The notes below the pieces were generated by a model. It was given only the letters and a program-made list of their open reading frames with translations, had not been told where the DNA came from and did no database searches. From a virus, in IMG/VR virus record IMGVR_UViG_3300033141_003442: a stretch of 57,992 bases of DNA. One strand, 5' to 3'. Made by a program: the position numbers and the translations under genes. This document shows positions 491 through 53,143 of the stretch, piece by piece. Each line of letters begins with the position of its first letter. Position 1 is the first letter of the stretch.

Positions 491-2083
491 ATGGCTTTTT
501 CAGATTTTATAAAAAGTCCAGAATTTTTAGGATTACTTTTAGCAGGGTTAGGTGGAGCTTCTATGGCTAATTTGCCTCCCAGTATTGGCATTCCTGCTGC
601 CCAAAGTTTAGGAGCTGGTATAGGTGCAGGATTAGCCAAATATAGAGAAGCAAAGGATTTTAAAGAAAAGGTAAGAATTATTAGTGATGCTGTTAAAAAT
701 AAAAATATATCTATCTCTGAAATAAATGCAATGTTAAATGAAATTCCTGATGAAGATAGACGGAAAAAGATAGAACTTCTTATTAAGCCTTACTTAGAGC
801 AAAAAAAATTACAAGTAATGGATGAGATGTATAAAAGATATATAAATGGAGATATAAGTGGGGCTGAACAATTAGGGATGTTAAATGGTATTAATTTATA
901 TGATAAAGAAGTGCAAAATTATTTTGCTACAAAACATGCACTAGGGCCAGCAGGTATTACTCAAAATATATTTAGGCAGAACATCCCTCAAACGCCAATG
1001 GTTAATATAAATATTCCACAGACACGTCAAGAATTTATGAGAACTCCTGTAACTCAAGCAATAACTCCAATTGTTAGGTCAACAAGGCCATTAACATCTA
1101 TAACAGGGCAACCTACACAGCAACCGTCAATAGCAAGTATGCCTCCTAGTGGGATGGAGAGATTTCCTGCTAAAACAAGCTCTTATAATGTTCCTAGCAC
1201 AGGATTAGGGCAAGGAATTGCTAGTTATTTAAGTAGGCTTTCTGGCCCAGAATTATTATTAGCAAGCAAAAGTCCAGCTTTTCATCCTTTAGTAGATTAT
1301 CTATTTAAAGACATATTAGCAAGAGAACGATGGGTAAGAGAAAGGAAAGGAAAAGAATTAGATTGGCAAATAAAGATGCAAACTCCTAAAACAGAATTTA
1401 GAGTTATTAATAGTGAAGGTTATACAATAACTTATCTCCCAACTGGAGATATTGTGAATGTAAACAAAACAAAACTTTCAGAAGATTTAGGCAAGATTGA
1501 AAATATCATTGCTTATAATGATAAGGTTTATATTATTCCGCAAGGAAGAAAAGCTGTATCAATAAGTGATATTAAAGATAAAACACTTAAAAGAGACTAT
1601 TTAATGACAGCTCTAGGATTTGTAGATAATGAAATAAAGGCTCTTTTATCTAAAATAGGAACGGCTAAATTATCAGCTTCTGAATTGAGAAATTTAAGAA
1701 ATTTTGCTATGAGACTTAATATTAGTGATGAAGATTTAGATAAATTAATGAAAGAAGCAGAAGCACAAGGCGTTAATATAGGATTACCTAAAACAGAAGA
1801 AGTTAAAGACCCAGAAGAAATAATAAGGTATATGAATAAATTAGAAAATACAAGGCAAGTAATTTTAGATAATCTTAGTAAATTAGGAATGAAGAAAAAA
1901 GAAATAGAAAGGATTAAACGGTTAGATGCAGAAAAAATACCGCAGGGGATAGAAATTACTGAGAAAACTTCTACGCAAACCCTTAGTGATGAAGAAGTGC
2001 TTAAACGCTATCCAGATGCAAAGAAAGCACCTGATGGAAATTGGTATGTTAAAAGAAATGGGAAATGGTATAGAATTGAGTAA
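491..2083 (+). CDS. Hypothetical virion protein (530 aa) with Gly-rich hydrophobic N-terminus
   Basis: Long ORF, SD AAGGAGGT 7 nt before ATG; N-terminal GLLLAGLGGASMANLPPSIGIPAAQSLGAGIGAGLA segment; sits directly upstream of the giant ORF. Confidence 0.6.
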   Translation: MAFSDFIKSPEFLGLLLAGLGGASMANLPPSIGIPAAQSLGAGIGAGLAKYREAKDFKEKVRIISDAVKNKNISISEINAMLNEIPDEDRRKKIELLIKPYLEQKKLQVMDEMYKRYINGDISGAEQLGMLNGINLYDKEVQNYFATKHALGPAGITQNIFRQNIPQTPMVNINIPQTRQEFMRTPVTQAITPIVRSTRPLTSITGQPTQQPSIASMPPSGMERFPAKTSSYNVPSTGLGQGIASYLSRLSGPELLLASKSPAFHPLVDYLFKDILARERWVRERKGKELDWQIKMQTPKTEFRVINSEGYTITYLPTGDIVNVNKTKLSEDLGKIENIIAYNDKVYIIPQGRKAVSISDIKDKTLKRDYLMTALGFVDNEIKALLSKIGTAKLSASELRNLRNFAMRLNISDEDLDKLMKEAEAQGVNIGLPKTEEVKDPEEIIRYMNKLENTRQVILDNLSKLGMKKKEIERIKRLDAEKIPQGIEITEKTSTQTLSDEEVLKRYPDAKKAPDGNWYVKRNGKWYRIE

Positions 2084-2096
2084 ATAGGAGAAAAAC

Positions 2097-5000
2097 ATGC
2101 CATTAACCCCAGTTGACTATGACCCTTTTAAAGAAGAAAAACAATCTTCAAAAAAATTAACAAAAAAACAAAAAGCAAAATTAGTTCCCGTTGATTATGA
2201 CCCTTTTGCTTCTGAAAAAAAGCAACCAGAAATCAGTGCTGAAAAAGGTATCCCACAATACCTCATCCCTTTTAGTAAATACCTAGGTATAGAACCAACT
2301 TATGTAAAACCAGGCTCATTTCTTGGTAATTTATTGGCTGTGCCTCATGCCTTTTTTGAAGCTGGAACGACTGCATTTGAAAGCCCTTATTATATTTTAA
2401 AAGGGCTAGGGAAAATATTACGATTACCTTCTTTAGAAAAAGCTGGCGAATGGGGGATTAAAGGACTTGAACCTACAAGAAGACATCATGAATTAATGCG
2501 TAAACAATTATATGTGCCACCTACTTCACCAACAGCACGATTAGCCCATTCCATTAGTAAAAAAGTAGCAGAAGCAATAGGAAGTTTTGCCCGTCCTGAT
2601 TTGCCTGTTTTAGTAGCTAGTCCTACAGCTTATGGTTTTCTTAGTGGATTAGAAACATTAGGAGCAGGAGCTCCACCTACACAAGCTTTAACAGCAGGCA
2701 TACATGGAATGATAGCAGGTAAAACTTTTGAAGCTGTTAGAGGATTAAGTCCTATGCAGGCACTTACTAGAGCCGGGGCTGTTGGAGCTACACCTGAAGT
2801 TGCAAGAGGTCTTATTACTGGTAAACCAGAGCAAATTGGTAAAGGAATAGAGGAAGGACTAAGCCTTGGTATATTTTCTGCATTGGCTACAATAAAAACT
2901 CCCTTAGCAAGAGAAATATATAGAAATAAAGTAAAAGCAGGCGTTCCAAGAGAAAAAGCATTACAAACAGCCTCTTTAGTAGAAGAAACAATTAAATCCT
3001 TAGATATTGATAAAGCTAAAAGTCTACCTCTTAAAGAAAAAGAAATACAAAAAGTAGAGAAAATCATTAGGGAGATAAGTAAACAAATAGAAGATTTACC
3101 AGAAGTTATAAAAGGTAAACGGGGATATAAGACAGAGAAAGGAGCTAAAATAGGGTTAAGATTGTTTGCTAAAGAAAATAAATTACCAAAAGATATGGAT
3201 TTAACCCAACATTACAATTTAGAGAAGGACGAAGCAGGTAATTTTGTTTGGAGAAAGATAACTGAAAAGCCAACGGAAATTAAACCTGCAATTAAACCTA
3301 AAGAAGAAGTAAAGCCTCCAGAGGTAGAAATTCCTAAAGAAGAAAAACCTCCAGCAAAAGAAATCAAAGAAAAGGTTGAAGAAAAGCCTAAGAAAGCCAA
3401 ACCTTATGAAAGCGTTGAACCTGGCAGTGCAGAATGGATGAAAATCTGGAAAGAGCATCCAGAGCTACAAAAGGAGATGGCTGAGATACGCCAGAAACAA
3501 ATAGTTGAGGAAGGTAAGAAAGAAGAAGCTTTACCAGAGGCTAAACCTGAAAAAGAACCTCCCAAAGAAAAACCTCCAGTAGTGCCTTTAACTAAGACAC
3601 TTTATGAAAATTCCTATCCCATTGAATTAAGTAAGGCCAGTGAGGTGTTTCCTAAACATAGACTTGGCGTTGATTATGTAGTTAAGCTGGTGGATAAAAA
3701 TACAGGTAAGGTTACTTGGGCTAGTTTAAGTGAGAAAAGGGCAAGAGAGTTATTTCCACGGTCTTTTGAAGAAAAGGCTAAGGAAGTTCCTAAAGCAGAA
3801 GCTGAATGGCAACCTGTAAAGGATTACAGCAAAGAAATAACTGAAGGAACTCATGTCAAATGGAAATATAAAGGCAAAGAGGGTGAAGGAATAGCCACAG
3901 GCAAGACAGGAAGGCGTAAGACAGGATTTGTTTATCATAAAGTTAAAACTCCAGAAGGCAAAACAAAATATATGCCTTGGACACCTAAAGCAGAATATTG
4001 GATTAAGGCAGAGAAAAAAGTTAAACCTGTTAAAGAAACAAAGGCAGAGGTTAAAGAAAAAGAACCTATAATAGCTATTTCTAAACGTGAACCTAATTTA
4101 CAATTTGAAATTGACCGTATAGAAGGAAATAAATTTATTGTAAAACGTCCTGTTATTATAAGCACATTGAAAGGAGAAGAAGGGAAAATAGTAGAAACAC
4201 CTGATAAATATTTAATAGGGCGAGAATATCCCGTTGAGAATTTTAGATTTGTAACACCCAAAGAATATGTAGCAGAAGTAAAAACAAAAGAAGCAAAAAT
4301 AAAAGCAGAAAGAGAAGCACAAAGGGAAACAGAACGAAAAAAACAGGAAGAAATTAAACAAGCACTTAAAGCCAAGCCAGTTACAGATAAGTATTATATT
4401 TATTTAAAGGACAAAGGTTTTGAGGAAGTTGAGAAAGCCTATCCTGTTAAAATCTCAGGGTTTGAAAAGTATGATTTATTTGCCCATAAGGTAGGTAAAA
4501 AATGGAAAGTTTCTGAAAGTAAAACTGGTGTTGCTATAACAAAAGCCCTTCCAACCCGTAAAGAAGCAATAAAACAAGCTACTGAAATTTTAAATAGGCA
4601 TAAAGAAAAATCTGATGAAATGATAGAAGATGCTATAGCCTATGCGTTATCTCAGACAGGAATTTCTCCACGATATAAGCCTATTTCTAAAGAACCTACA
4701 ATAACTCAACCCAAAGAAAATTTATATGAAGTGCGTCATCCAGAGAAAAAGACATGGTATCAAATCAAAGAAGACCCAGAAACAGAGCAATGGAGAGTTA
4801 TAAAGTTTGAGCCTTATGAAACTATACATGAAGGACAAAAAGTAACTGTTAATAAAGCTACTGAAACAAAGTTTTTTAAAACTTTAGAAGAAGCAAAAGA
4901 TTTTGCTCAAAAAGGAATTATAGGCAAGCCAGTAGAAGTAAAAATAAGTTCTTTTGTAAAAGATGCTTATCTGGAAGAATATGGCAAAGAAAAAGGCACA

Positions 5001-8000
5001 CAAGAATTATCAAATTTAAAAAATAAAGTTCAAAAAGCATGGGATATTTTAAAAAAGAAATATCCTCAATATGCTAATAAAATTACTTCAATTACTATTC
5101 ATAGAATGTCCCCAGAAGATATAGCATTAGGTGGTGTTTCTTCTATTGGTAAGAAAGGAGATGTTATTGTTGACCCAACTCATGCTAAAACAGAGCCTAT
5201 GGAAACGCTTGCTCATGAAATGTTACATGCAACAGGAGCTACTGAAAAAGAAGCTCGTGCTTTTGAAAAAACTATATCTAAAGAAACTAAATTTTATTCT
5301 GGTATCCCTATTGATGAAATAGTTAAAACAGTCAATGAAACAACTAAGAAGGTTGTTGATTATATTAAACAAAAAAAGATTGAAAAAGTTGATAAAGCAG
5401 AAATAGAACATACAGATAGATTTCTTTCTTTTTATGCTAAACAAATACCTAAAGTATTAACTAGACTATATGAAAAAGAACACCTCAAAACAGCTCATCC
5501 AGAAACTGTTTATAGAGAGGCTTTAGGTGAATTACCTACTACTATGCCTGAAAAAGTTAAAAAGCCAATAGTTAATGCTTTGGATGCTTCAAGAGAACAC
5601 GATTATAAGCTTAGTGGTTATGAAATAAAAGTTAAAGAAAAATTATTAGGTAGTTACAATGCTATTTATAAAATATATGGCAAAAAAGGAATAAAAAGAT
5701 TTTTTGATTTACTTTCTGCTGAAGCACATAAACGCCATGCAATTAGTGAAAAACAGTTAAAAGAATTACCACCTGAGTTTCAATTAGCTTATAAAAGAAC
5801 AAAAGAATATTTATTAAACCCATTAAAAGAATATATGAAGTTTTTAGAAGAAAAATATCCTGAAGGATATAAAACAGAAGAAATGGCTAAAAAAGCATTA
5901 GCTGAAGTTGCAGAAAAGAAACAAATAGAAAATATAGAAAGCTTATATACTTTAAAACAAAATAAAGCCAACCTATTTTATTGGGAGAAAAACCCTAATG
6001 CTGAAAAAATAGCTAAAAAGAAATTACCTCAAATTATTACAAAATGGAATAAAGAATATCAAAAAGTAAAAGAGTTATTAAAACAGGCAGAAAAAGATTA
6101 TTTTTATCAACCTACTGTTAGAACTCATGAAGATATTATCCTTGTTCTTAAAAAACCTAAAAAAGAAGGTGCTAAATCTACCGTTGTAGGAGCTTTTGAA
6201 TTCCCTAATGAAAGGAAAGCTAAACAACAATACAATAGAATGCTTAAAGGTGATTATACAGCTATTCTTAATTGGTTTAGACGGGTAGGAGATTTAGAAG
6301 CTGGAAGAGATTTTGTAAATAACATTAAAAAGGGTGATTATACATTAAAGCTTATCAAATTTAAAACAGAGCCTACTTATACTCCTGAAGATATACCTCT
6401 ACAAAGTGTAATGGGCATTTTATCTAAATACAAAGGGAAACAAATCAAAGCTAAAAATCTTCAGGCTAAAGCTATTGCTGAAGATATACAGCGGTTTATT
6501 GAGAAGTTTGTTAATCCTATTAGTGTTAAAAGTTTTCATTTAGAAAAGAAGAATATCCCTGGATGGAGCTTAGACCCTCTTGATAGAAATGATATTTTAC
6601 TTAGAAGGGTGCTTTCTGAAAAATCTCTTATTGAGAAATTAAAACTTTCTGATGTTATAACTAATTCTTTTGCTCAAATAGACCCAGAACAACATCCACA
6701 ATATTATAAATGGCTTTCTGATTTTAATAAATATATGATGACGCCTAGAGAACCTGAAACTACTCGCCGTATTCTTTCTGCTTGGAGTATGTGGGGCAAT
6801 GCAATGTCTGTTATAGCTAATGCTACTCAGTCTTATATTTTAGGCCCCGCTGTAATAATAGAAAATAAATTAAATCCTGCTAAGTTTTTAAAATATGAAA
6901 CTGAGTATTTAAGAAAGTATATTGAAAGTGATTACGATAGTAAAGACTTAGCTTATCTTGAATGGGGAAAGAAAAACGGTGTATTTGCTCCTACAGCATG
7001 GAAAGAAGCTATGCTTGGTTTAACGGGAGAGAGAGGAGGAGTAATACCCAAGATAGAAGATATAGGTTATGCGGGATTTACTTTTGTTGAGTCTGTTAAA
7101 AACAGAATGAATACTTTTCTCTCTGTAGCTAAAATGCTTGAAGAAAAAGGAATGCCTTTTGAAGAAGCTATGAAAAAAGCTCGTGATATTACTTTTGATA
7201 TTCATTTTGATATGAATAAATGGAATACGTTGATTAGAAAGAAATATCCTAGATTATTTCAAACCTTAATGAGTTTTACATTTCATTCCTTTAAAACATT
7301 AAGAAGACTTATTTTTAAATCTTTTCCTTCTGCTAGAGAAAGAAAATATGCTATAGGTGCATTAGCTACTTTTTATTTAACTCATTTTTTAGTTGGCGGA
7401 ATGGCAGCTACTCCAGGCGGAGAACTTTTCTGGCAGATGGTTGATATTCCCTTTAAAAAAGTTTTTAGGCAATCTATAAAGACTTATTTAATGAATGAAT
7501 TTTCTGATAAAGAACGCAAAAAATTACGTTTGTTCATACAATATGGATTGTTGGGATTGGCAGGATTACCAAGTGTAGCAGATAGAATTGGATTTGGTTA
7601 TAGAGAAGTAAGTAAACTTAATAATTTTATAGCAGATGCAATGGCTCATTTAGCTCCTATTCCAGTAATGGTTGCTAATCAAGCTGTTAAAGCTATTAGA
7701 ATGACGCAAAAGGGATATTCTTGGCCGACTGCTATTTCTCAACAATTCTCTCCTACCGTTGTAAGGAATATTTCTAGAACGCTGTATGCAATTAAAAAAG
7801 GTTATTTGCCAACATCCTATGGTAAACCTCTGCAAGATATATATGGTAATAACTTTGTGCCTACTGGATTAGAAGAAATTGCTATGTCTTTTATTGGTGC
7901 AATTCCACCTGAACAACAAGAGATTTATGAAATTAAAGAAGCTCAAAGAAAAAAAGAAGATATAAGATTGGCTCACTTACACGATATTACTAATGATATA

Positions 8001-8324
8001 GTATTAGGATACCTTGATAAAGATTATGCACGAATAGGAAGAGGGTTTGCAAAATGGACAAAATATAATAAAGAAATAATTAAAAAGATAATTAAGGCAA
8101 AAAAAGAGAAAAGAAATGATTTAGCTCGCTTCTGGTCAACTCAGTTAATAGAGCAAAAAGCAGTTGAAACATCTATTAGAAATAGATTAGGAAGACATGA
8201 AAGTGCACCAAATTTGTTAATGATGAGCTGGTGGAAAAAAGGACAAAAAGGTTATGAAGAAGCTGTTAAAGTTATTCTCTTAAGGGAATATTTACGCAGG
8301 CTTAAACAAAGGTTAAGGAGGTAA
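2097..8324 (+). CDS. Giant protein (2075 aa): candidate tape-measure or ejected polyvalent virion protein with HExxH zincin-like motif
   Basis: Uninterrupted 6.2-kb ORF with SD; duplicated N-terminal motif PVDYDPF x2; K/E/P-rich low-complexity stretch; HEMLH motif (LAHEMLHATG); hydrophobic C-terminal segments. Confidence 0.6.
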   Translation: MPLTPVDYDPFKEEKQSSKKLTKKQKAKLVPVDYDPFASEKKQPEISAEKGIPQYLIPFSKYLGIEPTYVKPGSFLGNLLAVPHAFFEAGTTAFESPYYILKGLGKILRLPSLEKAGEWGIKGLEPTRRHHELMRKQLYVPPTSPTARLAHSISKKVAEAIGSFARPDLPVLVASPTAYGFLSGLETLGAGAPPTQALTAGIHGMIAGKTFEAVRGLSPMQALTRAGAVGATPEVARGLITGKPEQIGKGIEEGLSLGIFSALATIKTPLAREIYRNKVKAGVPREKALQTASLVEETIKSLDIDKAKSLPLKEKEIQKVEKIIREISKQIEDLPEVIKGKRGYKTEKGAKIGLRLFAKENKLPKDMDLTQHYNLEKDEAGNFVWRKITEKPTEIKPAIKPKEEVKPPEVEIPKEEKPPAKEIKEKVEEKPKKAKPYESVEPGSAEWMKIWKEHPELQKEMAEIRQKQIVEEGKKEEALPEAKPEKEPPKEKPPVVPLTKTLYENSYPIELSKASEVFPKHRLGVDYVVKLVDKNTGKVTWASLSEKRARELFPRSFEEKAKEVPKAEAEWQPVKDYSKEITEGTHVKWKYKGKEGEGIATGKTGRRKTGFVYHKVKTPEGKTKYMPWTPKAEYWIKAEKKVKPVKETKAEVKEKEPIIAISKREPNLQFEIDRIEGNKFIVKRPVIISTLKGEEGKIVETPDKYLIGREYPVENFRFVTPKEYVAEVKTKEAKIKAEREAQRETERKKQEEIKQALKAKPVTDKYYIYLKDKGFEEVEKAYPVKISGFEKYDLFAHKVGKKWKVSESKTGVAITKALPTRKEAIKQATEILNRHKEKSDEMIEDAIAYALSQTGISPRYKPISKEPTITQPKENLYEVRHPEKKTWYQIKEDPETEQWRVIKFEPYETIHEGQKVTVNKATETKFFKTLEEAKDFAQKGIIGKPVEVKISSFVKDAYLEEYGKEKGTQELSNLKNKVQKAWDILKKKYPQYANKITSITIHRMSPEDIALGGVSSIGKKGDVIVDPTHAKTEPMETLAHEMLHATGATEKEARAFEKTISKETKFYSGIPIDEIVKTVNETTKKVVDYIKQKKIEKVDKAEIEHTDRFLSFYAKQIPKVLTRLYEKEHLKTAHPETVYREALGELPTTMPEKVKKPIVNALDASREHDYKLSGYEIKVKEKLLGSYNAIYKIYGKKGIKRFFDLLSAEAHKRHAISEKQLKELPPEFQLAYKRTKEYLLNPLKEYMKFLEEKYPEGYKTEEMAKKALAEVAEKKQIENIESLYTLKQNKANLFYWEKNPNAEKIAKKKLPQIITKWNKEYQKVKELLKQAEKDYFYQPTVRTHEDIILVLKKPKKEGAKSTVVGAFEFPNERKAKQQYNRMLKGDYTAILNWFRRVGDLEAGRDFVNNIKKGDYTLKLIKFKTEPTYTPEDIPLQSVMGILSKYKGKQIKAKNLQAKAIAEDIQRFIEKFVNPISVKSFHLEKKNIPGWSLDPLDRNDILLRRVLSEKSLIEKLKLSDVITNSFAQIDPEQHPQYYKWLSDFNKYMMTPREPETTRRILSAWSMWGNAMSVIANATQSYILGPAVIIENKLNPAKFLKYETEYLRKYIESDYDSKDLAYLEWGKKNGVFAPTAWKEAMLGLTGERGGVIPKIEDIGYAGFTFVESVKNRMNTFLSVAKMLEEKGMPFEEAMKKARDITFDIHFDMNKWNTLIRKKYPRLFQTLMSFTFHSFKTLRRLIFKSFPSARERKYAIGALATFYLTHFLVGGMAATPGGELFWQMVDIPFKKVFRQSIKTYLMNEFSDKERKKLRLFIQYGLLGLAGLPSVADRIGFGYREVSKLNNFIADAMAHLAPIPVMVANQAVKAIRMTQKGYSWPTAISQQFSPTVVRNISRTLYAIKKGYLPTSYGKPLQDIYGNNFVPTGLEEIAMSFIGAIPPEQQEIYEIKEAQRKKEDIRLAHLHDITNDIVLGYLDKDYARIGRGFAKWTKYNKEIIKKIIKAKKEKRNDLARFWSTQLIEQKAVETSIRNRLGRHESAPNLLMMSWWKKGQKGYEEAVKVILLREYLRRLKQRLRR

Positions 8325-8328: not shown

Positions 8329-8586
8329 ATGGGAGAGAACAAAGATAAACAGGCAGGATTACAGTGGCTTTGGCAACATGCTCTTTTCTTGCCTAAGAAT
8401 AGTGTAAGGGCAATTGCATTTCTGTTTACACTTATGCTTCTTGGTTATCTAGCATTAAATTTAAAAGGGCAAGTTCAAATGACGATTATAGGTGGACTTA
8501 TTAGCGTGCTTACAAGTGCTCTGCATTATTATTTTGGAGGAAGAGAAAAACAAGAGGAGAGAAATAATGAGCAAAGTAATAGCTGA
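8329..8586 (+). CDS. Small membrane protein with two predicted TM helices (holin-like)
   Basis: 85-aa ORF; hydrophobic stretches AIAFLFTLMLLGYLAL and MTIIGGLISVLTSALHYYF followed by a charged C-terminus. Confidence 0.35.
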   Translation: MGENKDKQAGLQWLWQHALFLPKNSVRAIAFLFTLMLLGYLALNLKGQVQMTIIGGLISVLTSALHYYFGGREKQEERNNEQSNS

Positions 8587-15212: not shown

Positions 15213-15704
15213 ATGATTAAATTTCTTGCATACAAAGGCACTGATTGGCTGGCTAAAGTAATTAAGTGGGAAACTCAGTCAGATTATTCCCACATAGCAT
15301 ATCTTTATGATGACAACCATATAATAGAATGTTGGCCTGAGCATTGGTATCAATTGTTGAATGTAAGGTGGAATATCAGGCCAATGTTTAAAGGATACAA
15401 AAAGGGTGATGAATACGAGATATGGGGCTTAGAGGTTTCGGACGGACAAGCTTGTGTTATTCATAATTTCTTTCTAGGGCTTGTAGAGAAGAAAGCCAAA
15501 TTTGATTATGTAGCTGGATTTGGATTATTTACAAAATGGAAGAAAGAAAAAATAGGACAATATTTTTGCAGTGAAGGATGTATTACTCCACTTGTAAGAA
15601 TATTTGATTGGACACATATTAAGCCTTGGAAAGTAACGCCTGAAAATTTCATACAAATTATTCAGGCTTGTGGTGGGAAGTTAATAGAAAAAGGTAAAGT
15701 TTAA
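15213..15704 (+). CDS. Putative permuted papain-fold hydrolase (YiiX/YaeF-like); assignment tentative
   Basis: His-containing motif (SHIAYLYDD) precedes a Cys motif (QYFCSEGC), consistent with permuted NlpC/P60-like enzymes. Confidence 0.35.
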   Translation: MIKFLAYKGTDWLAKVIKWETQSDYSHIAYLYDDNHIIECWPEHWYQLLNVRWNIRPMFKGYKKGDEYEIWGLEVSDGQACVIHNFFLGLVEKKAKFDYVAGFGLFTKWKKEKIGQYFCSEGCITPLVRIFDWTHIKPWKVTPENFIQIIQACGGKLIEKGKV

Positions 15705-16405
15705 TGTCAAATTCTAACAAGCCATATAGAGTTGTCTATTTTTCTGGTGGTAAAGATAGCACTGCCATGTTAATAGTGTTATTGGAAAACCAAATACCTT
15801 TTGATGAAATAATTTTTAATGATACTGAGGTAGAATTTCCAGAAATATACACACATATAAATTTAGTTCAAAAGAAGCTTGAGGTTAAAATAACATATTT
15901 AAAACCTAAGAAACATTTTGAATACTGGATGTGTGAACACAGAACTAGAAAAGGGAATATTGGTTATGGATGGCCTCGGATAAAATTGCGATGGTGCACT
16001 AAACTTTTTAAGCAACGAGCAGAAAGTTCATACTTTAAGAAAAAACAATTAAAAAATATCCGTAAACTAATAGGAATAAGTACAAGTGAAATAAATAGAA
16101 TGAAAAAATATTATAAGCAAGAAATTTATCCTCTTGTAAAATTTGGAATTGACAGCCAAGAAGCGTTAAAAATATGTTATCGTTATGGTTTTGATTGGAA
16201 TGGATTATATGAGAAATTAAGCCATACAGGCTGTTTTTGGTGTCCATTTCGGAGACTGAGAGAATTAGAAAATATTTATCGTTTTTATCCTCATTTATGG
16301 GTAAAAATGATGGAACTAGATGGTAAGTGTTGGAATAAATTTAGAGAAAATTGGACTTTGAAAGAATTAGAAAAACGATTTAAAAACACAGTTTATCTTT
16401 TTTAA
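15704..16405 (+). CDS. PP-loop ATP-pyrophosphatase family protein (PAPS reductase-like)
   Basis: N-terminal PP-loop SGGKDS (VVYFSGGKDSTAM); C-terminal Cys cluster; about 230 aa. Confidence 0.6.
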   Translation: MSNSNKPYRVVYFSGGKDSTAMLIVLLENQIPFDEIIFNDTEVEFPEIYTHINLVQKKLEVKITYLKPKKHFEYWMCEHRTRKGNIGYGWPRIKLRWCTKLFKQRAESSYFKKKQLKNIRKLIGISTSEINRMKKYYKQEIYPLVKFGIDSQEALKICYRYGFDWNGLYEKLSHTGCFWCPFRRLRELENIYRFYPHLWVKMMELDGKCWNKFRENWTLKELEKRFKNTVYLF

Positions 16406-17075: not shown

Positions 17076-18764
17076 TTATTTACCTATCCAATGTCTTCTC
17101 TCTTTTTCTTGGTTTTGTAATTCTCTCCATCTATCTTTTCTTTTTTTAGCCATTTCACGGCGTTCAAAATAAGGGAATAAATATAAAATTATATATCCAA
17201 TACAATCCATGCCATGAGCTAAATATTCATCTCTTTCCCAAGTTAATTCATTAGTCTTTTTAGTTTTAAGATATTGGAAACATCTATGAATATAAGCACA
17301 ACTTTCTGTTGAAATAAAATTTTCTACAGGGTTATCAGGAATTTCATCATTTATCAAAAGCCCAGGTTTCCCATTATATTCATCAGTTAATTTATTTCTT
17401 ATTTGCACGGTCATCCGTTCTTTTCTGTTAGGAATAGGTATAACAGGAGATAAGCCAGCAGCTATTAAAGCTTCTACACTCATTCCTTTATCGGTTCTTT
17501 GTTGTCCTGCTTCATCTGCAAGATAAATAAATGATGCTGCTTTTCCAAACCATTGTTTTAATTTACTTTTTACATATTTAGCAAAGGGAAATATATCTAT
17601 TTGTTTACCAAGAATACATTTTAAAATAAGAAGACAATCATCATCATCTACTTGAGCACATACCACGCAGGGATGTAGAAAGCCATAATCTATGCCTACA
17701 TATACAGGTTTTTCTTTAATATATGTAAGCTGTCTTATATGCTTAAATTTATCATATTGGGGAAAATGTTTGCCTGATTGTGGAATATCAAAAGTTCCTA
17801 ATACATTTATAGCAAAGTCAATAGCTCCTCTTTGTTGTTTTTCTCTTTCCACATCCTTTTTAGACATCTCATCATCATATCTCCAATCAAACTCATAAAT
17901 ACTAGGTAACTTTAAATTTGGATTTGTCCTTAACGGTTGTCTTTTACTGAATAATTGATAGAAATAATAAGAAGTATAATCATTATCAGCAGGTATAAGT
18001 CTTTCTCTAGCAGGAGTTCCACAAGCTATTCTACATGATACTGTATCAGTTAATGTTGACCATGCTGCGGCGTCTGTATGATACCATAAAGTATATTCAT
18101 CTAAAAAGGCTGCTCTTGCTCTACCACCAGCTCCAAAATCTGCTGTATTTGCCTTTCCTCTAATAGATACTCCAGTTTCAGGATTGATTAAAAGGCGTGT
18201 CCTGTCATGTTCTCTCCATTTAAATCCTTTAGGTAATAACCAATCAGGTAGTGATTTCAATAAATATCTTACTTTTTCAAAAAGACTATCCATATCTCCT
18301 CTTCTATCTACTGTTTCTTCATTCACTGAACCAAGAAGAAAATCACTAGGAAAGAATGGATTAAGAAAAAAGAAAAGAAAAACTCCTGCTACTGTAAAAG
18401 TAAATCCGATACTTCTTTTTTTAAGAGCTATTAAATCGCCTCCATATAATATTCTTTCAACAATAGCTGGGACTAATATTTCTCTTTGATATTTCCATAA
18501 AATATATGGTCTATGAGGACTATTAGGATGTCTTACTGGACAATATATATAAAGAAAACAATCAAAGAAAAAGATTATATCTTTAAAAGTATATAATTTA
18601 ATATCCTGTCTGAATTTACTATCTTTCCTTGCTTTTTTGAGAAGTTCTCTTCTAAATTCTAAATTTGCCTTATATTCTATTGGATATTTTATCTTATTTT
18701 TAGGAAAAACAGCATTTAAATGTTCAATAGAGGGTGCAAACTCAGAGAATTTTTGGGATTTCAT
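17076..18764 (-). CDS. terL: Terminase large subunit
   Basis: 562 aa; ATPase motifs (LWKYQREIL, GGDLIALKKRSIGFT, Walker B-like AAFLDEYTLW); nuclease-domain acidic motifs (VGIDYG, LADEAG, HGMDCIGY). Confidence 0.75.
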   Translation of the reverse strand: MKSQKFSEFAPSIEHLNAVFPKNKIKYPIEYKANLEFRRELLKKARKDSKFRQDIKLYTFKDIIFFFDCFLYIYCPVRHPNSPHRPYILWKYQREILVPAIVERILYGGDLIALKKRSIGFTFTVAGVFLFFFLNPFFPSDFLLGSVNEETVDRRGDMDSLFEKVRYLLKSLPDWLLPKGFKWREHDRTRLLINPETGVSIRGKANTADFGAGGRARAAFLDEYTLWYHTDAAAWSTLTDTVSCRIACGTPARERLIPADNDYTSYYFYQLFSKRQPLRTNPNLKLPSIYEFDWRYDDEMSKKDVEREKQQRGAIDFAINVLGTFDIPQSGKHFPQYDKFKHIRQLTYIKEKPVYVGIDYGFLHPCVVCAQVDDDDCLLILKCILGKQIDIFPFAKYVKSKLKQWFGKAASFIYLADEAGQQRTDKGMSVEALIAAGLSPVIPIPNRKERMTVQIRNKLTDEYNGKPGLLINDEIPDNPVENFISTESCAYIHRCFQYLKTKKTNELTWERDEYLAHGMDCIGYIILYLFPYFERREMAKKRKDRWRELQNQEKERRHWIGK

Positions 18765-18857: not shown

Positions 18858-20774
18858 ATGAGAAAAAAGAAAGAAATAGATGTTATTTTAGAACGATATG
18901 AAGAAACAAAGTCTGCCTATAAGGATTTTTGGAAAAAGGCTGAAGAAAGCTACGGCTTTGTTTATGGCAACAAATATCAATGGTATGTAGATGGAAGCGA
19001 CAAATACTATAAAGATTTAAAAGATGCAGAGCGCCCTACTTTATCTATAAATAGAATACAGGCCAAATTAAATCTCCTTGATGGTTATTTTCTTACTACC
19101 AGATATGATATTAAATTCCGTCCACAACAAAAGAAAGACCAAGAAATAGTTGATATAGCTAATCAATTATATAAATTAGTTTGGTATCAAATAAAAGGCG
19201 ATGCGATTGAAGGAGAAGTTTTTTATAATGGCATAATTTCAGGAGAGCATTATTTTTATATTTATCCTGATTATTCTAAAGATATTATTCGTGGTGATGT
19301 AGGTCTTTGTGCTTGTTCTCCATGGGAGATAATGTTTGACCCACGAGCAAAACGATATGATAAAACAGATGCTGAATATGTCTTTAGGTCTGTATGGCTT
19401 CCCATAGAAACAATTAAACGAAGATGGCCTCAAAAAGCCAGACAAATAGATAAATTAGTTAAAGTTTTAACTATTATCTCTACTGAAGGATTTGAAGCTC
19501 TTAAACAAAGCGTTCATATTACACATCCTTACGATAGATGGAGAGATGCTTTATCACGGCCTTATAATATTAAAGCAAATGAAGGAAGAATAGATGAGTA
19601 TTGGTATAAAACTTGGGAAAAAGTTGAAATTATTGTTGATGCTATTACAAAAAAAGTCATTGATGAAAGTGAAATAGACAAAGAAACCTTGGAAATTAGG
19701 AAAAAAGCTGGAGATATAGAAGTTTTAACCAGATATATTCCTAAAGTAAGAGTTAAATATTTGTTTGGAGATATAGAGCTTAGTGATGAACCTTCTCCTT
19801 GGACAAAAGGAGAATTAGCAAAGAATTTCCCTTTTGTTCCTTTTACAATATATAAAATATATTTACCTACAGAAAAGAAATATTTAATCTGGGGTGCTGT
19901 AGAAGTTCTTAAAGATGTTCAAAGAGAGATAAATAAAAGGCATAGTTATCTTGTAGAGGCTATGCTTAATGCTCCTTATAGTGTTTTAATATATGAAGAC
20001 CAAACTTTTACTCCTGAAAGTGAAGAAGCTTTAAGCAAAAAAGGTTTCCGCCCAGGTATGTCTTTAAAAACTTATCCAGGGAAAATAAATAGTTATAAAA
20101 TTGAAAACACTGTGCAATTCCCTGTAGGTTTATTGGAATTAGAAAATTTAGCTCTTAAAGACGCTGATATAGTTTCTCCTATTATTCCGCCTTCTGGTAA
20201 AGTTAAATCTGGTTCTGCAATGCTTCAAGAAGAAAGAATTATGCTTACAGATAAAGCAAGAATATTTAATAATTTCAAAGATACAAAAATACTTTTAGCT
20301 AGATATTTATTTAATGCTATTCAGCAAACTTATGATTATGAGAAAACTTTTAAGGCTGTTGACAGCGATGAAGAATATACTATAAATCAAGTAGTTTTTG
20401 CTACCAAAACAGAGCCTCATCCACTTACTGGTTCTCCTGTTGAAACTGTTGTTAGAGATAAATTTGGCAGGCCTGTAATAGAAAAAATAGTAAATGATAT
20501 TACAAATGAAGCTCTTGATTTTGATATTATTGCTACTGAAGTTAATGCTTCACCAAGTTATAGATTAGCAGTAGCCAATGATTTATTAAAAATAATTCAG
20601 ACAACGCCAAATCCGATTTTTATTAAAATGTTGTTTGAATATCTAGATTTACCTTCCCATATTAAAAAAGAATTAGAGCAACAAATGAATGCTCAAACGC
20701 AGCAAGCATTACAACAACAAAATTTGCCACAAAATATAAGACAGTTACAAACCCCATTCAAGCAAGGAGGATAA
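18858..20774 (+). CDS. Probable portal protein
   Basis: 638 aa, size and position next to terL; general resemblance to portal proteins; not verified by search. Confidence 0.5.
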   Translation: MRKKKEIDVILERYEETKSAYKDFWKKAEESYGFVYGNKYQWYVDGSDKYYKDLKDAERPTLSINRIQAKLNLLDGYFLTTRYDIKFRPQQKKDQEIVDIANQLYKLVWYQIKGDAIEGEVFYNGIISGEHYFYIYPDYSKDIIRGDVGLCACSPWEIMFDPRAKRYDKTDAEYVFRSVWLPIETIKRRWPQKARQIDKLVKVLTIISTEGFEALKQSVHITHPYDRWRDALSRPYNIKANEGRIDEYWYKTWEKVEIIVDAITKKVIDESEIDKETLEIRKKAGDIEVLTRYIPKVRVKYLFGDIELSDEPSPWTKGELAKNFPFVPFTIYKIYLPTEKKYLIWGAVEVLKDVQREINKRHSYLVEAMLNAPYSVLIYEDQTFTPESEEALSKKGFRPGMSLKTYPGKINSYKIENTVQFPVGLLELENLALKDADIVSPIIPPSGKVKSGSAMLQEERIMLTDKARIFNNFKDTKILLARYLFNAIQQTYDYEKTFKAVDSDEEYTINQVVFATKTEPHPLTGSPVETVVRDKFGRPVIEKIVNDITNEALDFDIIATEVNASPSYRLAVANDLLKIIQTTPNPIFIKMLFEYLDLPSHIKKELEQQMNAQTQQALQQQNLPQNIRQLQTPFKQGG

Positions 20775-22337: not shown

Positions 22338-22565
22338 TTAATATTCTACTTCTTCTTTTTCCATCCAAATTCTAAATTTCCAACCACATTCGCTACAATT
22401 GAAGTTAATTGCATTGTCAGAAATATTTTTTTTATTTGGGCAAGAAAATATTATTTTAAGTTCTTCTCCTTCTGGCCAATGCCCAAATGTATATATTTTA
22501 CCACAATTTGGACACTGCCAAATAAGTTTACAAAGTTTTTCTTTCATTTTTTTCTCCTTATTCAA
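22338..22565 (-). CDS. Small Zn-ribbon protein
   Basis: CxxC pairs (CPNCGK, CSECG). Confidence 0.5.
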   Translation of the reverse strand: MNKEKKMKEKLCKLIWQCPNCGKIYTFGHWPEGEELKIIFSCPNKKNISDNAINFNCSECGWKFRIWMEKEEVEY

Positions 22566-23094
22566 TATTTAACAAATATCTTTTAATCCCATTATTAATT
22601 AAAAATGCTGCTTTTATTTGGGCATCGGAAGAATGTAATGGGAGAAGGGGATTATCTATAAAACCTACTTCAATTAAAACAGCAGGCATTTTGGTTTTCC
22701 TTAATACATAAAAATTTCCTTCTTTAATTCCTCTGAACTTGCCTGGGACAATCTCATCAATAAATGTAGCAATATTATCTGCTAGTTTAGCACTTTTAAT
22801 TGAACCAGGATAAATCCAGATTTCCTCTCCCTTAGCATTATGTTTAGGAGAAGCATTAACATGAATACTAACAAAGGCATCTGCTTTTACACTATTTGCA
22901 ATAAAAACCCTATCTCGCAATGGCACATATATATCAGCCGTTCTGGTATAAATACAGTTTACCATATTGGATAAAAAACCACCCAAATATAATGCAATAG
23001 GCAAAACTATATCTTTTTCTTTGTATCCTGCATAAACAGCCCCTGGGTCTTTACCTCCATGCCCTGGGTCAATTACTATGGTGTATTTTTTCAT
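22558..23094 (-). CDS. N-acetylmuramoyl-L-alanine amidase (Amidase_3-type endolysin)
   Basis: N-terminal IVIDPGHGGKDPGA and downstream Zn-ligand pattern typical of Amidase_3 / CwlV-like enzymes. Confidence 0.8.
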   Translation of the reverse strand: MKKYTIVIDPGHGGKDPGAVYAGYKEKDIVLPIALYLGGFLSNMVNCIYTRTADIYVPLRDRVFIANSVKADAFVSIHVNASPKHNAKGEEIWIYPGSIKSAKLADNIATFIDEIVPGKFRGIKEGNFYVLRKTKMPAVLIEVGFIDNPLLPLHSSDAQIKAAFLINNGIKRYLLNIE

Positions 23095-45936: not shown

Positions 45937-46059
45937 CCTGCCTTTTTAATTCCTGTCAAACTGTGCCCATGTGCCCTATTTTACTTTGCTTTTCACAACC
46001 AGAGCATTGCCCTTATGCGTTCTAGTTTACTTTGTTGCTTGATTGCTTGGCTGTTTTTT

Positions 46060-53004: not shown

Positions 53005-53143
53005 AATTAACAAGATGGAGAATATTTCCACCTACTTTATTAAGAGATAGAAGTTATAAATTTAAAATAACCAGTAGTGGAATTATGTTTAAATTATATT
53101 CTTTAAGTATAAGTATTAAAACAGTTAAAAAGGTAGGAAATTA

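What the first reader, a model, noticed from the sequence alone, without database searches (positions are those of the whole stretch)
2097..8324. Giant 2075-aa ORF with duplicated N-terminal PVDYDPF motif and an internal HExxH motif
A 6.2-kb single ORF follows two other large virion-block ORFs. It has a duplicated short motif at the N-terminus (LTPVDYDPF / LVPVDYDPF), a long K/E/P-rich low-complexity region, an HEMLH motif in a globular-looking region (about 5215-5240), and hydrophobic C-terminal segments. This fits either an unusually long tape-measure protein or a multi-domain polyvalent protein ejected with the DNA, with a zincin-like peptidase domain. The domain content is otherwise unassigned.
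Basis: partly seen in the sequence, partly recalled or inferred. Interest (0 to 1): 0.6.

Follow-up and report, generated by a model that had tools for sequence, protein, structure and literature searches.

The report
Giant modular phage injected-protein gene
The 2075-residue gene is a divergent phage "polyvalent" virion protein, a string of swappable modules including a small zinc-protease domain and a conserved C-terminal domain; it is probably packed in the capsid and ejected into a bacterial host, so it is a new member of a known class, not a tape measure.

Summary
In detail: one ORF (2097..8324, 2075 aa), PVDYDPF at residues 5 and 31, a K/E/P-rich linker, a single HEMLH (nt 5214-5228) and hydrophobic C-terminal helices.

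The window is a complete 57.9-kb phage genome with a 114-bp terminal repeat. Its capsid and portal proteins resemble those of Bcep22/PEp14/GP4-type podoviruses, which carry a giant virion-associated "DarB-like" protein at this same position (last late gene, before lysis).

- **C-terminal domain:** the last ~750 aa are the NCBIfam "tail-700/PLxRFG" domain. It ends proteins of 3000-4400 aa that carry ART-PolyVal, LPD1/5/39, InPase and methylase-helicase domains.
- **Modularity:** close relatives swap modules; one carries a RadC/JAB domain and a different C-terminus.
- **Composition:** the protein and its giant relatives contain no cysteine.

The tape-measure reading is rejected; the polyvalent, ejected-protein reading is supported by inference. 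The host is probably bacterial, so the Heimdallarchaeaceae label looks like a binning artefact. This is a new member of a known kind, of moderate interest.

The parts
2097..8324 (+). Giant ORF, 2075 aa plus stop: predicted virion-packaged polyvalent protein
   Evidence: An identical protein is on record as a hypothetical protein of a Heimdallarchaeaceae MAG.
2086..2090 (+). Shine-Dalgarno-like AGGAG, 6 nt upstream of the ATG
   Evidence: upstream sequence aaatAGGAGaaaaacATG
2103..2129 (+). N-terminal motif copy 1, LTPVDYDPF (aa 3-11)
   Evidence: Conserved in P0002.
2181..2207 (+). N-terminal motif copy 2, LVPVDYDPF (aa 29-37)
2244..2906 (+). Gly/Ala-rich, mildly hydrophobic N-terminal region (aa 50-270). 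Other family members have compositionally similar regions at the same place, without detectable homology.
3294..3578 (+). K/E/P-rich low-complexity linker (aa 400-494). It includes a short conserved block (aa ~430-488) shared with P0002.
3579..4076 (+). Cargo module A (aa 495-660), 89% identical to P0002 aa 783-947 and also present in L009. No family assignment.
4077..4688 (+). Variable cargo region (aa 661-864). Contains a small DUF2188/phrog_10501-like domain at aa ~791-845. A different module takes its place in L009, and the region is absent from P0002.
4689..4928 (+). Cargo module B (aa 865-944), 81% identical to P0002 aa 943-1022. No family assignment.
4935..5294 (+). Minimal zincin-like metallopeptidase cassette (aa ~947-1066). 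Absent from the 94-96%-identical relative P0003/L009.
5214..5246 (+). Active-site motif HEMLHATGATE (aa 1040-1050), i.e. HExxHxxGxxE. E1050 is the proposed third zinc ligand.
5295..6047 (+). Helical connector region (aa 1067-1317), shared with P0003. No family assignment.
6048..8321 (+). Conserved C-terminal domain (aa 1318-2075) = NCBIfam NF032893 'tail-700 / PLxRFG domain' (HMM match aa 1654-2006). Mostly alpha-helical, with a small N-terminal alpha/beta subdomain.
6771..6860 (+). Conserved hydrophobic helix 1 (aa 1559-1588) with the invariant NxTQ motif (N1575, Q1578)
7350..7418 (+). Conserved hydrophobic helix 2 (aa 1752-1774) ending in the invariant GG..A.P. It reaches transmembrane-range hydropathy in most relatives.
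7524..7580 (+). Conserved hydrophobic helix 3 (aa 1810-1828)
491..2083 (+). Upstream 530-aa cysteine-free late protein, positional counterpart of the 530-aa virion protein gp69 of BcepIL02. Its last ~30 codons (about nt 1990-2083) lie in the DNA block that is conserved together with the giant ORF's N-terminus.
   Evidence: No sequence similarity to gp69.
8329..8586 (+). 85-aa ORF directly downstream, with two hydrophobic segments and a charged C-terminus. It is holin-like and marks the end of the virion block.
   Evidence: (phrog_1350, E 0.0036)

Best explanation
The ORF encodes a phage polyvalent protein: a very large, cysteine-free virion protein of a podovirus-like phage. Exchangeable cargo modules sit between a constant N-terminal address region and a constant C-terminal domain.

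Proposed mechanism (all steps below are inferred):
1. The protein is made late and incorporated into the capsid interior with the other internal/ejection proteins. The ~750-aa C-terminal PLxRFG ('tail-700') domain is the virion-specific part, because its type changes when the virion gene set changes.
2. On infection it is threaded, unfolded, through the portal-tail channel with the DNA. Its three conserved hydrophobic helices may insert into the host membrane as part of the ejection conduit.
3. The cargo then acts early in the cell. The one recognisable enzyme, a ~120-aa minimal zincin (HExxHxxGxxE) with a Wss1/SprT-like fold, most likely cuts the polyprotein into its modules or cleaves a host protein. 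This is what Iyer et al. proposed for metallopeptidases of polyvalent proteins.
4. The duplicated N-terminal PVDYDPF peptide is a short linear docking motif. Its most likely partner is the C-terminal ~30 residues of the protein encoded just upstream, with which it is co-conserved.

Shown here: the anatomy, the homology of the C-terminal domain, the zincin fold of the predicted model, the modular shuffling, the synteny and the absence of cysteine.
For: Genome type:
- The genome is complete, with a 114-bp direct terminal repeat.
- The major capsid protein matches PF13252 (E 9e-27) and phrog_334, and the portal matches phrog_156.
- The nearest known phages are Bcep22-like, PEp14, GP4 and cyanopodophages.

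Synteny:
- In BcepIL02 and LASTA, a 4400-4700-aa 'DarB-like' protein is the last late gene. It follows a ~400-530-aa virion protein and, in BcepIL02, lies upstream of the lysis cassette (two short reverse-strand genes intervene). A PAPS reductase lies nearby.
- The window has the same layout.
- The JC1 homologue gp69 is virion-associated by mass spectrometry (PMC9144972).

C-terminal domain:
- An exhaustive phmmer search found 18 relatives, with aa ~1318-2075 aligning to the C-termini of proteins of 1382-4403 aa. Local iteration gave E-values of 1e-67 to 1e-230.
- Those proteins carry ART-PolyVal, Eco57I methylase plus SNF2 helicase (which aligns with the BcepIL02 gp70 core), InPase, LPD1, LPD5, LPD39 and MuF_C.
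- NCBIfam NF032893 tail-700/PLxRFG matches at E 5.7e-17.
- tblastn with P0013's copy of the domain hits 48 phages, in several of the same genera as the capsid-protein hits (Klebsiella, Erwinia, Pseudomonas, Microcystis, Serratia, Agrobacterium, Ochrobactrum).
- Foldseek against BFVD gave 24 hits at E <= 1e-3, mostly the last pieces of giant viral proteins. Many are named LPD-, methylase- or helicase-containing; weaker matches include ART-PolyVal and RelA/SpoT proteins.
- 11 of 13 family members match phrog_10089, 'DarB-like antirestriction'.

Modularity:
- P0002 shares the N-terminus and modules A and B at 81-89% identity, but has another HExxH, a RadC/JAB domain (32.9 bits against a gathering score of 22.1) and an unrelated C-terminus.
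- P0003/L009 has a 96%-identical C-terminal domain, lacks the zincin cassette and has another module in place of aa 661-864.
- The phage carrying P0002 shares non-structural genes at 60-90% identity but has an unrelated virion module.

Zincin:
- The model has pLDDT 84.5 and pTM 0.79, with the topology helix / three-stranded sheet / HExxH helix / Glu helix.
- Sub-threshold HMM hits are mostly to metallopeptidase families: M91, DUF3810, SprT-like, DUF6782, M78 and MPTase-PolyVal.

Composition:
- There are 0 Cys in 2075 aa, against 1.17% in the other window ORFs (P ~2e-11).
- There are also 0 Cys in P0013, P0014, P0018, BcepIL02 gp70 and LASTA gp01.
- From own knowledge, this is typical of proteins translocated unfolded across envelopes.
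Against: - There is no experimental evidence of packaging or ejection for this protein or for any PLxRFG-domain protein proven to share this domain. The virion proteomics comes from Bcep22-like phages, whose C-terminus is not demonstrably homologous (best E 0.03-0.13 at the equivalent position).
- The window's C-terminal domain scores below the NCBIfam cut-off (61 against 100 bits) and below 1e-3 against PHROGs.
- Apart from the zincin, no cargo module has an assigned function, so 'polyvalent' rests on architecture and relatives.
- The zincin misses every Pfam gathering threshold. Its third ligand and its activity are inferred from a model built on only three sequences.
- The C-terminal-domain model is of medium confidence (pLDDT 66). 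Its PDB neighbours are generic helical bundles, so a membrane or channel role is speculative. Hydropathy of the helices in this protein (1.3-1.5) is below the usual transmembrane range.
Confidence: 0.75

Rival explanations
1. Structural ejectosome/internal-core protein only. In this reading the protein's job is to build the trans-envelope DNA conduit, like T7 gp15/gp16, P22 gp7/16/20 or cyanophage A4 gp26-29. The zincin would be a cell-wall peptidase that helps penetration, and the middle modules would be spacers rather than effectors.
For: - The phage has a podovirus-type virion module and no tape measure, so it needs ejection proteins (PMC12002296).
- The C-terminal domain has conserved hydrophobic helices.
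- The A4 ejection protein gp28 carries a lytic transglycosylase and a metallopeptidase.
- BcepIL02 gp70 and LASTA gp01 begin with a region that reads like a lytic transglycosylase (by eye; not HMM-tested).
Against: - The zincin's nearest folds are Wss1/SprT-type and minimal gluzincins, not the M15/M23 cell-wall peptidases.
- The cassette is dispensable in a 96%-identical relative, which is unexpected for an essential penetration enzyme.
- Relatives of the C-terminal domain carry clearly cytoplasm-directed enzymes: DNA methylase/helicase, ART, RelA/SpoT and RadC.
- The two readings are not exclusive. The C-terminal domain may be structural while the middle region is cargo.
Confidence: 0.15
2. 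Unusually long tape measure protein of a long-tailed phage, with embedded enzymatic motifs. T5 pb2 and mycobacteriophage tape measures are precedents.
For: - It is the largest ORF in the genome, has helical and hydrophobic C-terminal parts, and no other ORF is long enough to be a tape measure.
- Tape measures with peptidase motifs exist (own knowledge).
Against: - No tail-tube, sheath, chaperone or baseplate hits were found in the late genes that were scanned.
- The capsid protein and portal resemble podoviruses only.
- The tail spike/fibre genes (51499..54331) lie upstream and a holin-like gene lies directly downstream. This is the reverse of the tape measure, distal tail protein, tail-tip protein, fibre order.
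- The C-terminal domain is homologous to that of giant proteins of isolated podoviruses such as LASTA.
- Globular alpha/beta modules are inserted and deleted between near-identical relatives, which would change tail length by tens of nm.
Confidence: 0.03
3. A late-expressed protein that is not in the virion. It could be, for example, a membrane-anchored superinfection-exclusion or lysis-timing factor, or a polyprotein processed in the producing cell. Alternatively it could be a protein of an Asgard-archaeal virus or plasmid, as the database label suggests.
For: - There are no proteomic data.
- The record is labelled Candidatus Heimdallarchaeaceae.
- The protein has hydrophobic helices and a protease.
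Against: - Position and synteny match those of virion-associated giants.
- Complete cysteine avoidance is shared with those giants.
- The genome encodes a peptidoglycan amidase (22558..23094, 85% identical to a PF01520 protein). Its nearest genomic relatives are all bacterial, at 35-47% identity.
- Late genes carry AGGAGG ribosome-binding sites.
- The genome has terminal repeats plus terminase, portal and capsid genes, so it is a tailed phage, not a plasmid.
Confidence: 0.05

Closest known systems
PLxRFG ('tail-700', NCBIfam NF032893) domain-containing DarB-like giant proteins of Lastavirus/PEp14-type and related podoviruses (e.g. Klebsiella phage LASTA gp01, 4433 aa; metagenomic P0013, 4403 aa)
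   Same: - The ~600-750-aa C-terminal domain is homologous, with the same invariant motifs and hydrophobic helices.
- It is likewise the last gene of the late operon, after a mid-sized virion protein.
- It likewise contains no cysteine.
- It sits in a genome with the same type of capsid protein.
   Different: - It is half the size and lacks the DarB core (N6-adenine methylase plus SNF2/DExH helicase), the lytic transglycosylase and all named LPD/ART domains.
- Its C-terminal domain is the most divergent seen: 61 bits against a cut-off of 100, and no PHROG hit.
- It comes from an AT-rich (33% GC) phage whose endolysin points to a non-proteobacterial host.
Polyvalent proteins of phages and conjugative elements (Iyer, Burroughs, Anand, de Souza, Aravind 2017, PMC5512222)
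   Same: - It is a multi-module giant in a late-gene/virion context.
- It contains a zincin-like metallopeptidase, the most common hub domain of the class.
- Relatives carry RadC/JAB, ART, methylase-helicase, Pol-beta NTase and ddrB-ParB domains.
- Domain architecture is extensively mosaic between close relatives.
   Different: - Only one module can be assigned.
- Its zincin does not reach the threshold of the Pfam model built from that study (MPTase-PolyVal, 14.4 against 27.5 bits).
- The searched passages of that paper turned up no mention of the PLxRFG domain or a duplicated N-terminal motif. That was a term search, not a full reading.
Bcep22-like (Lessievirus) gp75/gp70/gp69 DarB-like virion proteins (Bcep22, BcepIL02, JC1)
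   Same: - Same genomic position and neighbours.
- Virion association shown by mass spectrometry (PMC9144972).
- No cysteine.
- Related capsid protein, ~25% identity.
   Different: - No significant sequence similarity anywhere.
- Homology of the C-termini is not established (E 0.03-0.13).
Wss1/WLM and SprT/Spartan minimal zincins, and archaeal minigluzincins (proabylysin, projannalysin, selecase)
   Same: - The third-ligand position six residues after the second His matches Wss1.
   Different: - Sequence identity is 8-17%.
- The third ligand here would be Glu rather than His.
- There is no ubiquitin/SUMO-binding or DNA-binding accessory region.
- SprT-like Pfam hits are sub-threshold.
- The domain is embedded in a 2075-aa phage protein.
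Phage N4 virion RNA polymerase gp50 and other encapsidated giants
   Same: It is a very large podovirus protein with regions needed for encapsidation and injection and an internal HExxH zincin domain (PMC5512222).
   Different: No RNA polymerase module and no sequence similarity. The capsid type differs.

Membership tests
PLxRFG / tail-700 domain proteins (NCBIfam NF032893) | Match to the NF032893 HMM at or above the curated cut-off of 100 bits | tested here: not met
   The score is 61.4 bits, E 5.7e-17, for aa 1654-2006 against model positions 303-657. This is significant but below the cut-off. P0013 scores 152.9 bits.
PLxRFG / tail-700 domain proteins (NCBIfam NF032893) | Homology to undisputed members over the whole domain, located at the extreme C-terminus of a large phage protein | tested here: met
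   - Whole-library phmmer E-values are 7e-22 to 1e-5 to the C-termini of P0005, P0006, P0013, P0014 and P0018.
- Local jackhmmer joins LASTA gp01 aa 3823-4384 and P0013 aa 3715-4370.
- There are 14 invariant columns.
- Foldseek against BFVD gives E down to 1e-12.
Phage-type polyvalent proteins (Iyer et al. 2017) | Encoded among late/virion genes of a phage with a portal-terminase packaging system | tested here: met
   Terminase, portal and major capsid protein were identified. The ORF closes the late block, before a holin-like ORF.
Phage-type polyvalent proteins (Iyer et al. 2017) | Several functionally diverse effector/enzymatic domains in one polypeptide | tested here: inconclusive
   One enzymatic domain (the zincin) was recognised. 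At least four other discrete modules exist but are unassigned. Relatives with the same N-terminus or the same C-terminal domain carry RadC, ART, methylase-helicase, InPase and NTase domains.
Phage-type polyvalent proteins (Iyer et al. 2017) | Mosaic domain architecture among orthologues | tested here: met
   Three close relatives differ by whole modules.
Phage-type polyvalent proteins (Iyer et al. 2017) | Packaged in the virion and delivered into the host with the DNA | not testable with these tools
   There is only indirect support: synteny with the mass-spectrometry-verified JC1 gp69 and complete cysteine avoidance.
Zincin-like metallopeptidases | HExxH on a helix packed against a mixed beta-sheet and an N-terminal helix, followed by a helix carrying the third ligand | tested here: met
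   [not shown]
Zincin-like metallopeptidases | Metal binding and peptidase activity | not testable with these tools
   H1040, E1041, H1044 and E1050 are invariant in the 3 known homologues. Activity is untested.
Pfam MPTase-PolyVal (PF18818), SprT-like (PF10263), Peptidase_M91 (PF14891), Peptidase_M78 (PF06114) | Score at or above the Pfam gathering threshold | tested here: not met
   - MPTase-PolyVal: 14.4 bits against 27.5.
- M91: 18.5 against 25.
- M78: 13.5 against 22.
- SprT-like: best E 0.007.
All. The module is an unclassified zincin family with 3 known members.
DarB (phage P1) / DarB-like antirestriction proteins | N6-adenine methyltransferase plus superfamily-2 helicase core | tested here: not met
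   There are no methylase or helicase hits in Pfam, NCBIfam or PHROGs. There is no similarity to BcepIL02 gp70. P0013, by contrast, aligns with the gp70 core.
Tape measure proteins | Located between tail-chaperone genes and distal-tail/baseplate genes in a phage that has a tail tube | tested here: not met
   No tube, sheath or chaperone was found in the late ORFs scanned. Fibre/spike genes lie upstream and a holin-like gene downstream. The virion genes are podovirus-like.
Tape measure proteins | Predominantly extended alpha-helical/coiled-coil polypeptide whose length is constrained | tested here: not met
   The protein contains alpha/beta globular modules. Whole modules are gained and lost between relatives that are 94-96% identical.

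The most novel reading that the evidence does not exclude
The duplicated N-terminal peptide may be a general, undescribed 'address tag' of this class of giant phage proteins.

- Unrelated family members also begin with two copies of their own short acidic/aromatic motif: P0013 DALFADIPS/DDLFADIPS, P0005 LTDEQLIAEYNRKF/LSDSELIAEYERKF, P0012 PFFD/QFFD.
- In the window, the motif pair is co-conserved, within a ~230-nt DNA block, with the last ~30 residues of the upstream virion protein. This block persists across two phages whose virion modules are otherwise unrelated.

If the tag docks the giant onto that partner or onto the portal, it would define how very large cargo proteins are loaded into podovirus capsids. 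Arbitrary cargo could then be targeted for packaging and injection.

A second, less likely novel reading is that the phage really infects a Heimdallarchaeon (probability about 0.05).
Probability: 0.25. Interest if true: 0.6.

Novelty: new member of a known kind. Interest (0 to 1): 0.4.

Why it matters
- **Annotation:** the result turns a 6.2-kb 'hypothetical protein of a Heimdall archaeon' into an interpretable object. It is the injected, modular giant protein of a divergent, complete podovirus-like phage that probably infects a bacterium. This also flags a likely mis-binned contig in an Asgard MAG.
- **Family biology:** three observations may be useful beyond this phage, and I found none of them described in the papers I searched.
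  - The uncharacterised PLxRFG/tail-700 domain changes when the virion gene set changes, while cargo modules are swapped freely. That points to a role in virion incorporation or ejection.
  - The giants are completely free of cysteine.
  - Several begin with a duplicated short motif.
- **New modules:** the unassigned cargo modules and the new minimal zincin family are candidates for early-acting anti-defence or host-takeover functions.

Tried and rejected
- **Whole-protein Pfam and PHROG scans** gave nothing significant. Scanning ten separate segments added only the RadC domain of the relative.
- **tblastn of the whole protein** against 50,697 phage records found no match.
- **The word-indexed protein search** was dominated by low-complexity words. 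It returned only self, P0002, P0003 and P0021 in three tries, even with a 13-sequence profile. The exhaustive phmmer search was what opened up the family.
- **BLASTP against BcepIL02 gp70 and gp69** found no similarity. Profile searches against the C-termini of gp70 and P0002 were not significant, so homology of the C-termini with the mass-spectrometry-verified Bcep22-like giants is not claimed.
- **N-terminal regions** of family members are not detectably homologous to one another.
- **No internal repeats** were found by self-BLAST.
- **PDB sequence searches** with the protein, the C-terminal-domain profile and the zincin profile gave nothing significant.
- **The search for related loci:** the 13-sequence alignment was too divergent to search with. 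The C-terminal domain alone found nothing in GTDB genomes.
- **No tRNA genes** were found.
- **Tape-measure and archaeal-virus readings** were considered and rejected, for the reasons given under the rival explanations.

Full report
**1. The observation**

The ORF is real. It runs from ATG at 2097 to a stop at 8324 on the + strand, is 2075 aa long and has an AGGAG six bases upstream.

- PVDYDPF occurs at residues 5-11 and 31-37 and nowhere else in the six-frame translation of the window.
- Residues 401-500 are 64% K+E+P.
- There is one HExxH, HEMLH at residues 1040-1044 (nt 5214-5228).
- Three moderately hydrophobic helices lie at residues 1559-1588, 1752-1774 and 1810-1828.

By composition alone, an HExxH would appear in 5.6% of shuffled copies and some repeated 7-mer in 2%. 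Neither motif is compelling on its own; conservation makes them so (sections 3 and 4).

**2. What the window is**

The first 114 bases are repeated at the end, so the window is a complete 57.9-kb genome with 33% GC. The late genes identified are:

- a large terminase at 17076..18764 (-) and a portal at 18858..20774 (phrog_156, E 1.8e-66);
- a major capsid protein at 46348..47352 (PF13252, E 9e-27; phrog_334, E 1.5e-45);
- a beta-helix spike at 51499..53004 and a fibre-like protein at 53144..54331.

No tail tube, sheath, chaperone or baseplate gene was detected in the late ORFs scanned.

By tblastn, the capsid protein and portal resemble, at 21-28% identity, only podoviruses: Burkholderia Bcep22-like phages (BcepIL02, BcepMigl, DC1, JC1), Erwinia PEp14, Ralstonia GP4-like phages, Hamiltonella APSE and several cyanopodophages.

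In BcepIL02 the late operon ends with a PAPS reductase, a 530-aa virion protein, then the 4667-aa 'DarB-like' gp70, with the lysis cassette downstream after two short reverse-strand genes. Klebsiella phage LASTA has the same ending. The window ends the same way:

- the 530-aa ORF 491..2083;
- the giant ORF;
- an 85-aa two-helix holin-like ORF at 8329..8586;
- a PAPS reductase at 15704..16405.

The giant protein of JC1 (gp69) is the second most abundant protein in purified virions by mass spectrometry score (PMC9144972). The tail-fibre genes lie upstream of the giant ORF, which is the opposite of the tape-measure arrangement.

**3. The C-terminal domain**

The word-indexed searches were swamped by low-complexity matches. 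An exhaustive phmmer search of 1.84 billion representatives with residues 876-2075 found 18 relatives.

- Residues ~1318-2075 align with the extreme C-termini of proteins of 1382, 1608, 1775, 3032, 3802 and 4403 aa.
- Local iteration joins all of them, and also LASTA gp01 residues 3823-4384, with E-values between 1e-77 and 1e-221 in the run that includes LASTA (1e-67 to 1e-230 in the first run).
- Pfam shows what those proteins are:
  - P0013 has an Eco57I-type methylase, an SNF2 helicase and ART-PolyVal. Its core aligns with the DarB-like core of BcepIL02 gp70.
  - P0014 has InPase, LPD5, LPD1 and MuF_C.
  - P0018 has a Strawberry-notch-type helicase and LPD39.

  These are textbook polyvalent proteins in the sense of Iyer et al. 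2017 (PMC5512222).
- NCBIfam names the domain. NF032893, 'tail-700', 'PLxRFG domain-containing protein', matches the window protein at E 5.7e-17 (61 bits, below the curated 100 bits) and P0013 at 153 bits.
- tblastn with P0013's copy of the domain hits 48 isolated phages in several of the same genera as the capsid-protein hits (Klebsiella, Erwinia, Pseudomonas, Microcystis, Serratia, Agrobacterium, Ochrobactrum). LASTA's giant is annotated both 'PLxRFG domain-containing protein' and 'DarB-like antirestriction'.
- 11 of 13 aligned members match phrog_10089, 'DarB-like antirestriction'. The window's copy is the divergent exception.
- An AF2 model of the domain (pLDDT 66) is almost all alpha-helical, with a small N-terminal alpha/beta subdomain.
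- Foldseek against BFVD gives 24 hits at E <= 1e-3. Most are the last fragments of giant viral proteins, many named as LPD-, methylase- or helicase-containing; ART-PolyVal and RelA/SpoT proteins appear among weaker matches.
- The alignment has 14 invariant columns. They include N1575/Q1578 (NxTQ), E1665/N1669/R1670 and G1767/G1768 followed by a nearly invariant P1773 (GG..A.P). The three hydrophobic helices are at conserved positions, and the middle one reaches transmembrane-range hydropathy in most members.
- The literature I could search treats the PLxRFG domain only as an annotation label of unknown function (PMC9505181, PMC13028781).

**4. The HExxH module**

A relative that is 94-96% identical over the C-terminal 1000 residues (P0003, on scaffold L009) goes directly from '...GKPVE' to 'YSGIPIDE...'. 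It lacks residues ~947-1066. P0003 starts where it does only because a scaffold gap splits that ORF.

The module is therefore a cassette. It recurs in two other proteins (NTase):

- P0004 (57% identity in the module alignment);
- P0008 (41%), next to a Pol-beta nucleotidyltransferase.

The motif HEMxHxxGxTE..A.A.EK is invariant among them.

No HMM reaches threshold, but most of the sub-threshold hits are metallopeptidases:

- Peptidase_M91 (E 0.0027), DUF3810 (9e-4), SprT-like (0.007), DUF6782, M78 and MPTase-PolyVal (0.04);
- proabylysin in the PDB (E ~1).

The AF2 model is confident (pLDDT 84.5, pTM 0.79). It has the zincin topology: a long N-terminal helix, a three-stranded sheet, the HExxH helix and a following helix.

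The glutamate six residues after the second histidine (E1050) is at the position of the third ligand in Wss1 and the metzincins. That spacing is from my own knowledge. The assignment is an inference, because I could not inspect the coordinates.

**5. Modularity**

The only other relative of the N-terminus is P0002 (2245 aa, on a 61-kb contig).

- It shares the first 45 residues, including both PVDYDPF copies.
- It shares part of the K/E-rich linker, module A (89% identity) and module B (81%).
- It has a different HExxH (LHEFAH), a RadC/JAB domain (32.9 bits against a gathering score of 22.1) and a C-terminal 1000 residues with no similarity to the window's.

The phage carrying P0002 shares the non-structural genes with the window at 60-90% amino-acid identity: metallophosphatase, PAPS reductase, amidase and others. 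Its virion genes, however, are unrelated. So the type of C-terminal domain changes together with the virion module, while cargo modules are shared across that boundary. This is my main reason for assigning the C-terminal domain to virion incorporation or ejection. The step is inferred.

A ~230-nt DNA block is nearly identical between the two phages. It covers the last ~30 codons of the upstream ORF, the ribosome-binding site and the first 45 codons of the giant ORF. Within it, the spacer between the two motif copies has diverged while the motif copies differ only synonymously.

Other family members begin with their own duplicated short motifs, followed by Gly/Ala-rich sequence:

- P0013: DALFADIPS / DDLFADIPS;
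- P0005: LTDEQLIAEYNRKF / LSDSELIAEYERKF;
- P0012: PFFD / QFFD.

These N-termini are not detectably homologous to one another.

**6. Composition**

The giant has no cysteine in 2075 residues, whereas the other ORFs of the window average 1.17% (P about 2e-11). P0013 (4403 aa), P0014, P0018, BcepIL02 gp70 (4667 aa) and LASTA gp01 (4433 aa) also have none.

Cysteine avoidance is, to my knowledge, typical of proteins that cross envelopes unfolded. I take it as independent, indirect support for ejection.

**7. Host**

The database record calls the contig Candidatus Heimdallarchaeaceae. The evidence points to a bacterial host instead:

- The genome encodes a homologue (22558..23094, 85% identical) of a protein carrying Pfam Amidase_3, a peptidoglycan amidase.
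- That protein's nearest relatives in 185,579 species genomes are all bacterial, at 35-47% identity: Bacillota, Bacteroidota and cyanobacteria.
- The late genes have AGGAGG ribosome-binding sites.

The label is probably a binning artefact.

**8. Conclusion**

The finding is a divergent phage polyvalent protein that occupies the 'DarB-like giant' position of a podovirus-type genome. It has the PLxRFG/tail-700 C-terminal domain, a new minimal zincin cassette and otherwise unassigned cargo.

- It is not a tape measure.
- It is not a DarB homologue, because it has no methylase-helicase core.
- Its zincin is not a member of any Pfam family by threshold.
- Packaging, ejection, membrane insertion, self-processing and the docking role of PVDYDPF are all inferences.

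I rate it a new member of a known kind, with interest 0.4. The family-level observations raise it somewhat above a routine annotation. These are the co-variation of the C-terminal domain with the virion module, the duplicated N-terminal motifs and the total absence of cysteine.

Noticed in passing
window 1-114 and 57879-57992: There is an exact 114-bp direct terminal repeat. The window is therefore a complete genome (~57.9 kb), circularly permuted or terminally redundant, and the virion block wraps around the window ends.
   Followed up: partly
window 22558-23094 (-): This ORF is a peptidoglycan amidase (Amidase_3) homologue. Its nearest genomic relatives are Bacillota, Bacteroidota and cyanobacteria at 35-47% identity. 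Together with the AGGAGG ribosome-binding sites, this suggests the NCBI label 'Candidatus Heimdallarchaeaceae archaeon' is a binning artefact.
   Followed up: partly
window 9554-10732 (-): A 392-aa TnpB/IS605-OrfB-like transposase (phrog_506, E 4e-45) lies on the opposite strand, inside the otherwise + strand block just after the metallophosphatase gene. Relative L009 has a Cas12f1-like_TNB gene at a similar place on the + strand, and L001 has none. It looks like a mobile insertion.
   Followed up: no
window 4-480, 491-2083, 20778-21752, 48238-48699, 49238-49882, 55717-56688, 56699-57097: Several other late proteins also have no cysteine at all, as does BcepIL02 gp69. They may be the remaining internal/ejection proteins of the virion.
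   Followed up: no
window ~1990-2225; L001 ~9890-10125: A ~230-nt DNA block is nearly identical between two phages whose surrounding virion genes are unrelated. It covers the C-terminal 'SDEEVLKRYPDAKKAPDGNWYVKRNGKWYRIE' of the upstream protein, the ribosome-binding site and the N-terminal 45 codons of the giant ORF. It is either a recombination joint or a co-selected interaction pair.
   Followed up: partly
L001/L002 1-9987 versus window 45421-57558: The phage carrying P0002 shares replication and auxiliary genes with the window at 60-90% identity but has a completely different virion module. That module includes an S8 peptidase with an intein, two Gp80-family proteins and a CBM/beta-helix spike. 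This is a whole-module swap between close relatives.
   Followed up: partly
L007/L008 6915-13033: In another relative the giant is split into two adjacent genes: a 1028-aa protein with a ddrB-ParB domain and a 1010-aa protein carrying the PLxRFG-type C-terminal domain. Both lie at the end of the late operon.
   Followed up: no
window 15704-16405 (+): A PAPS-reductase-like gene (phrog_424, E 1.4e-39) sits within the late region, as in Bcep22-like phages (BcepIL02 gp67). Relative L001 additionally has a radical-SAM gene beside it, so a DNA-modification or nucleotide pathway is possible.
   Followed up: no
window 17076-18764 (-) and 18858-20774 (+): The large terminase and the portal are divergently transcribed. 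They are separated from the capsid/tail block by ~23 kb of minus-strand early genes, which is an unusual split of the morphogenesis genes.
   Followed up: no
window 45421-45936 (+): An HNH endonuclease (several PHROGs, E ~1e-7) lies upstream of the major capsid gene at the start of the late block.
   Followed up: no
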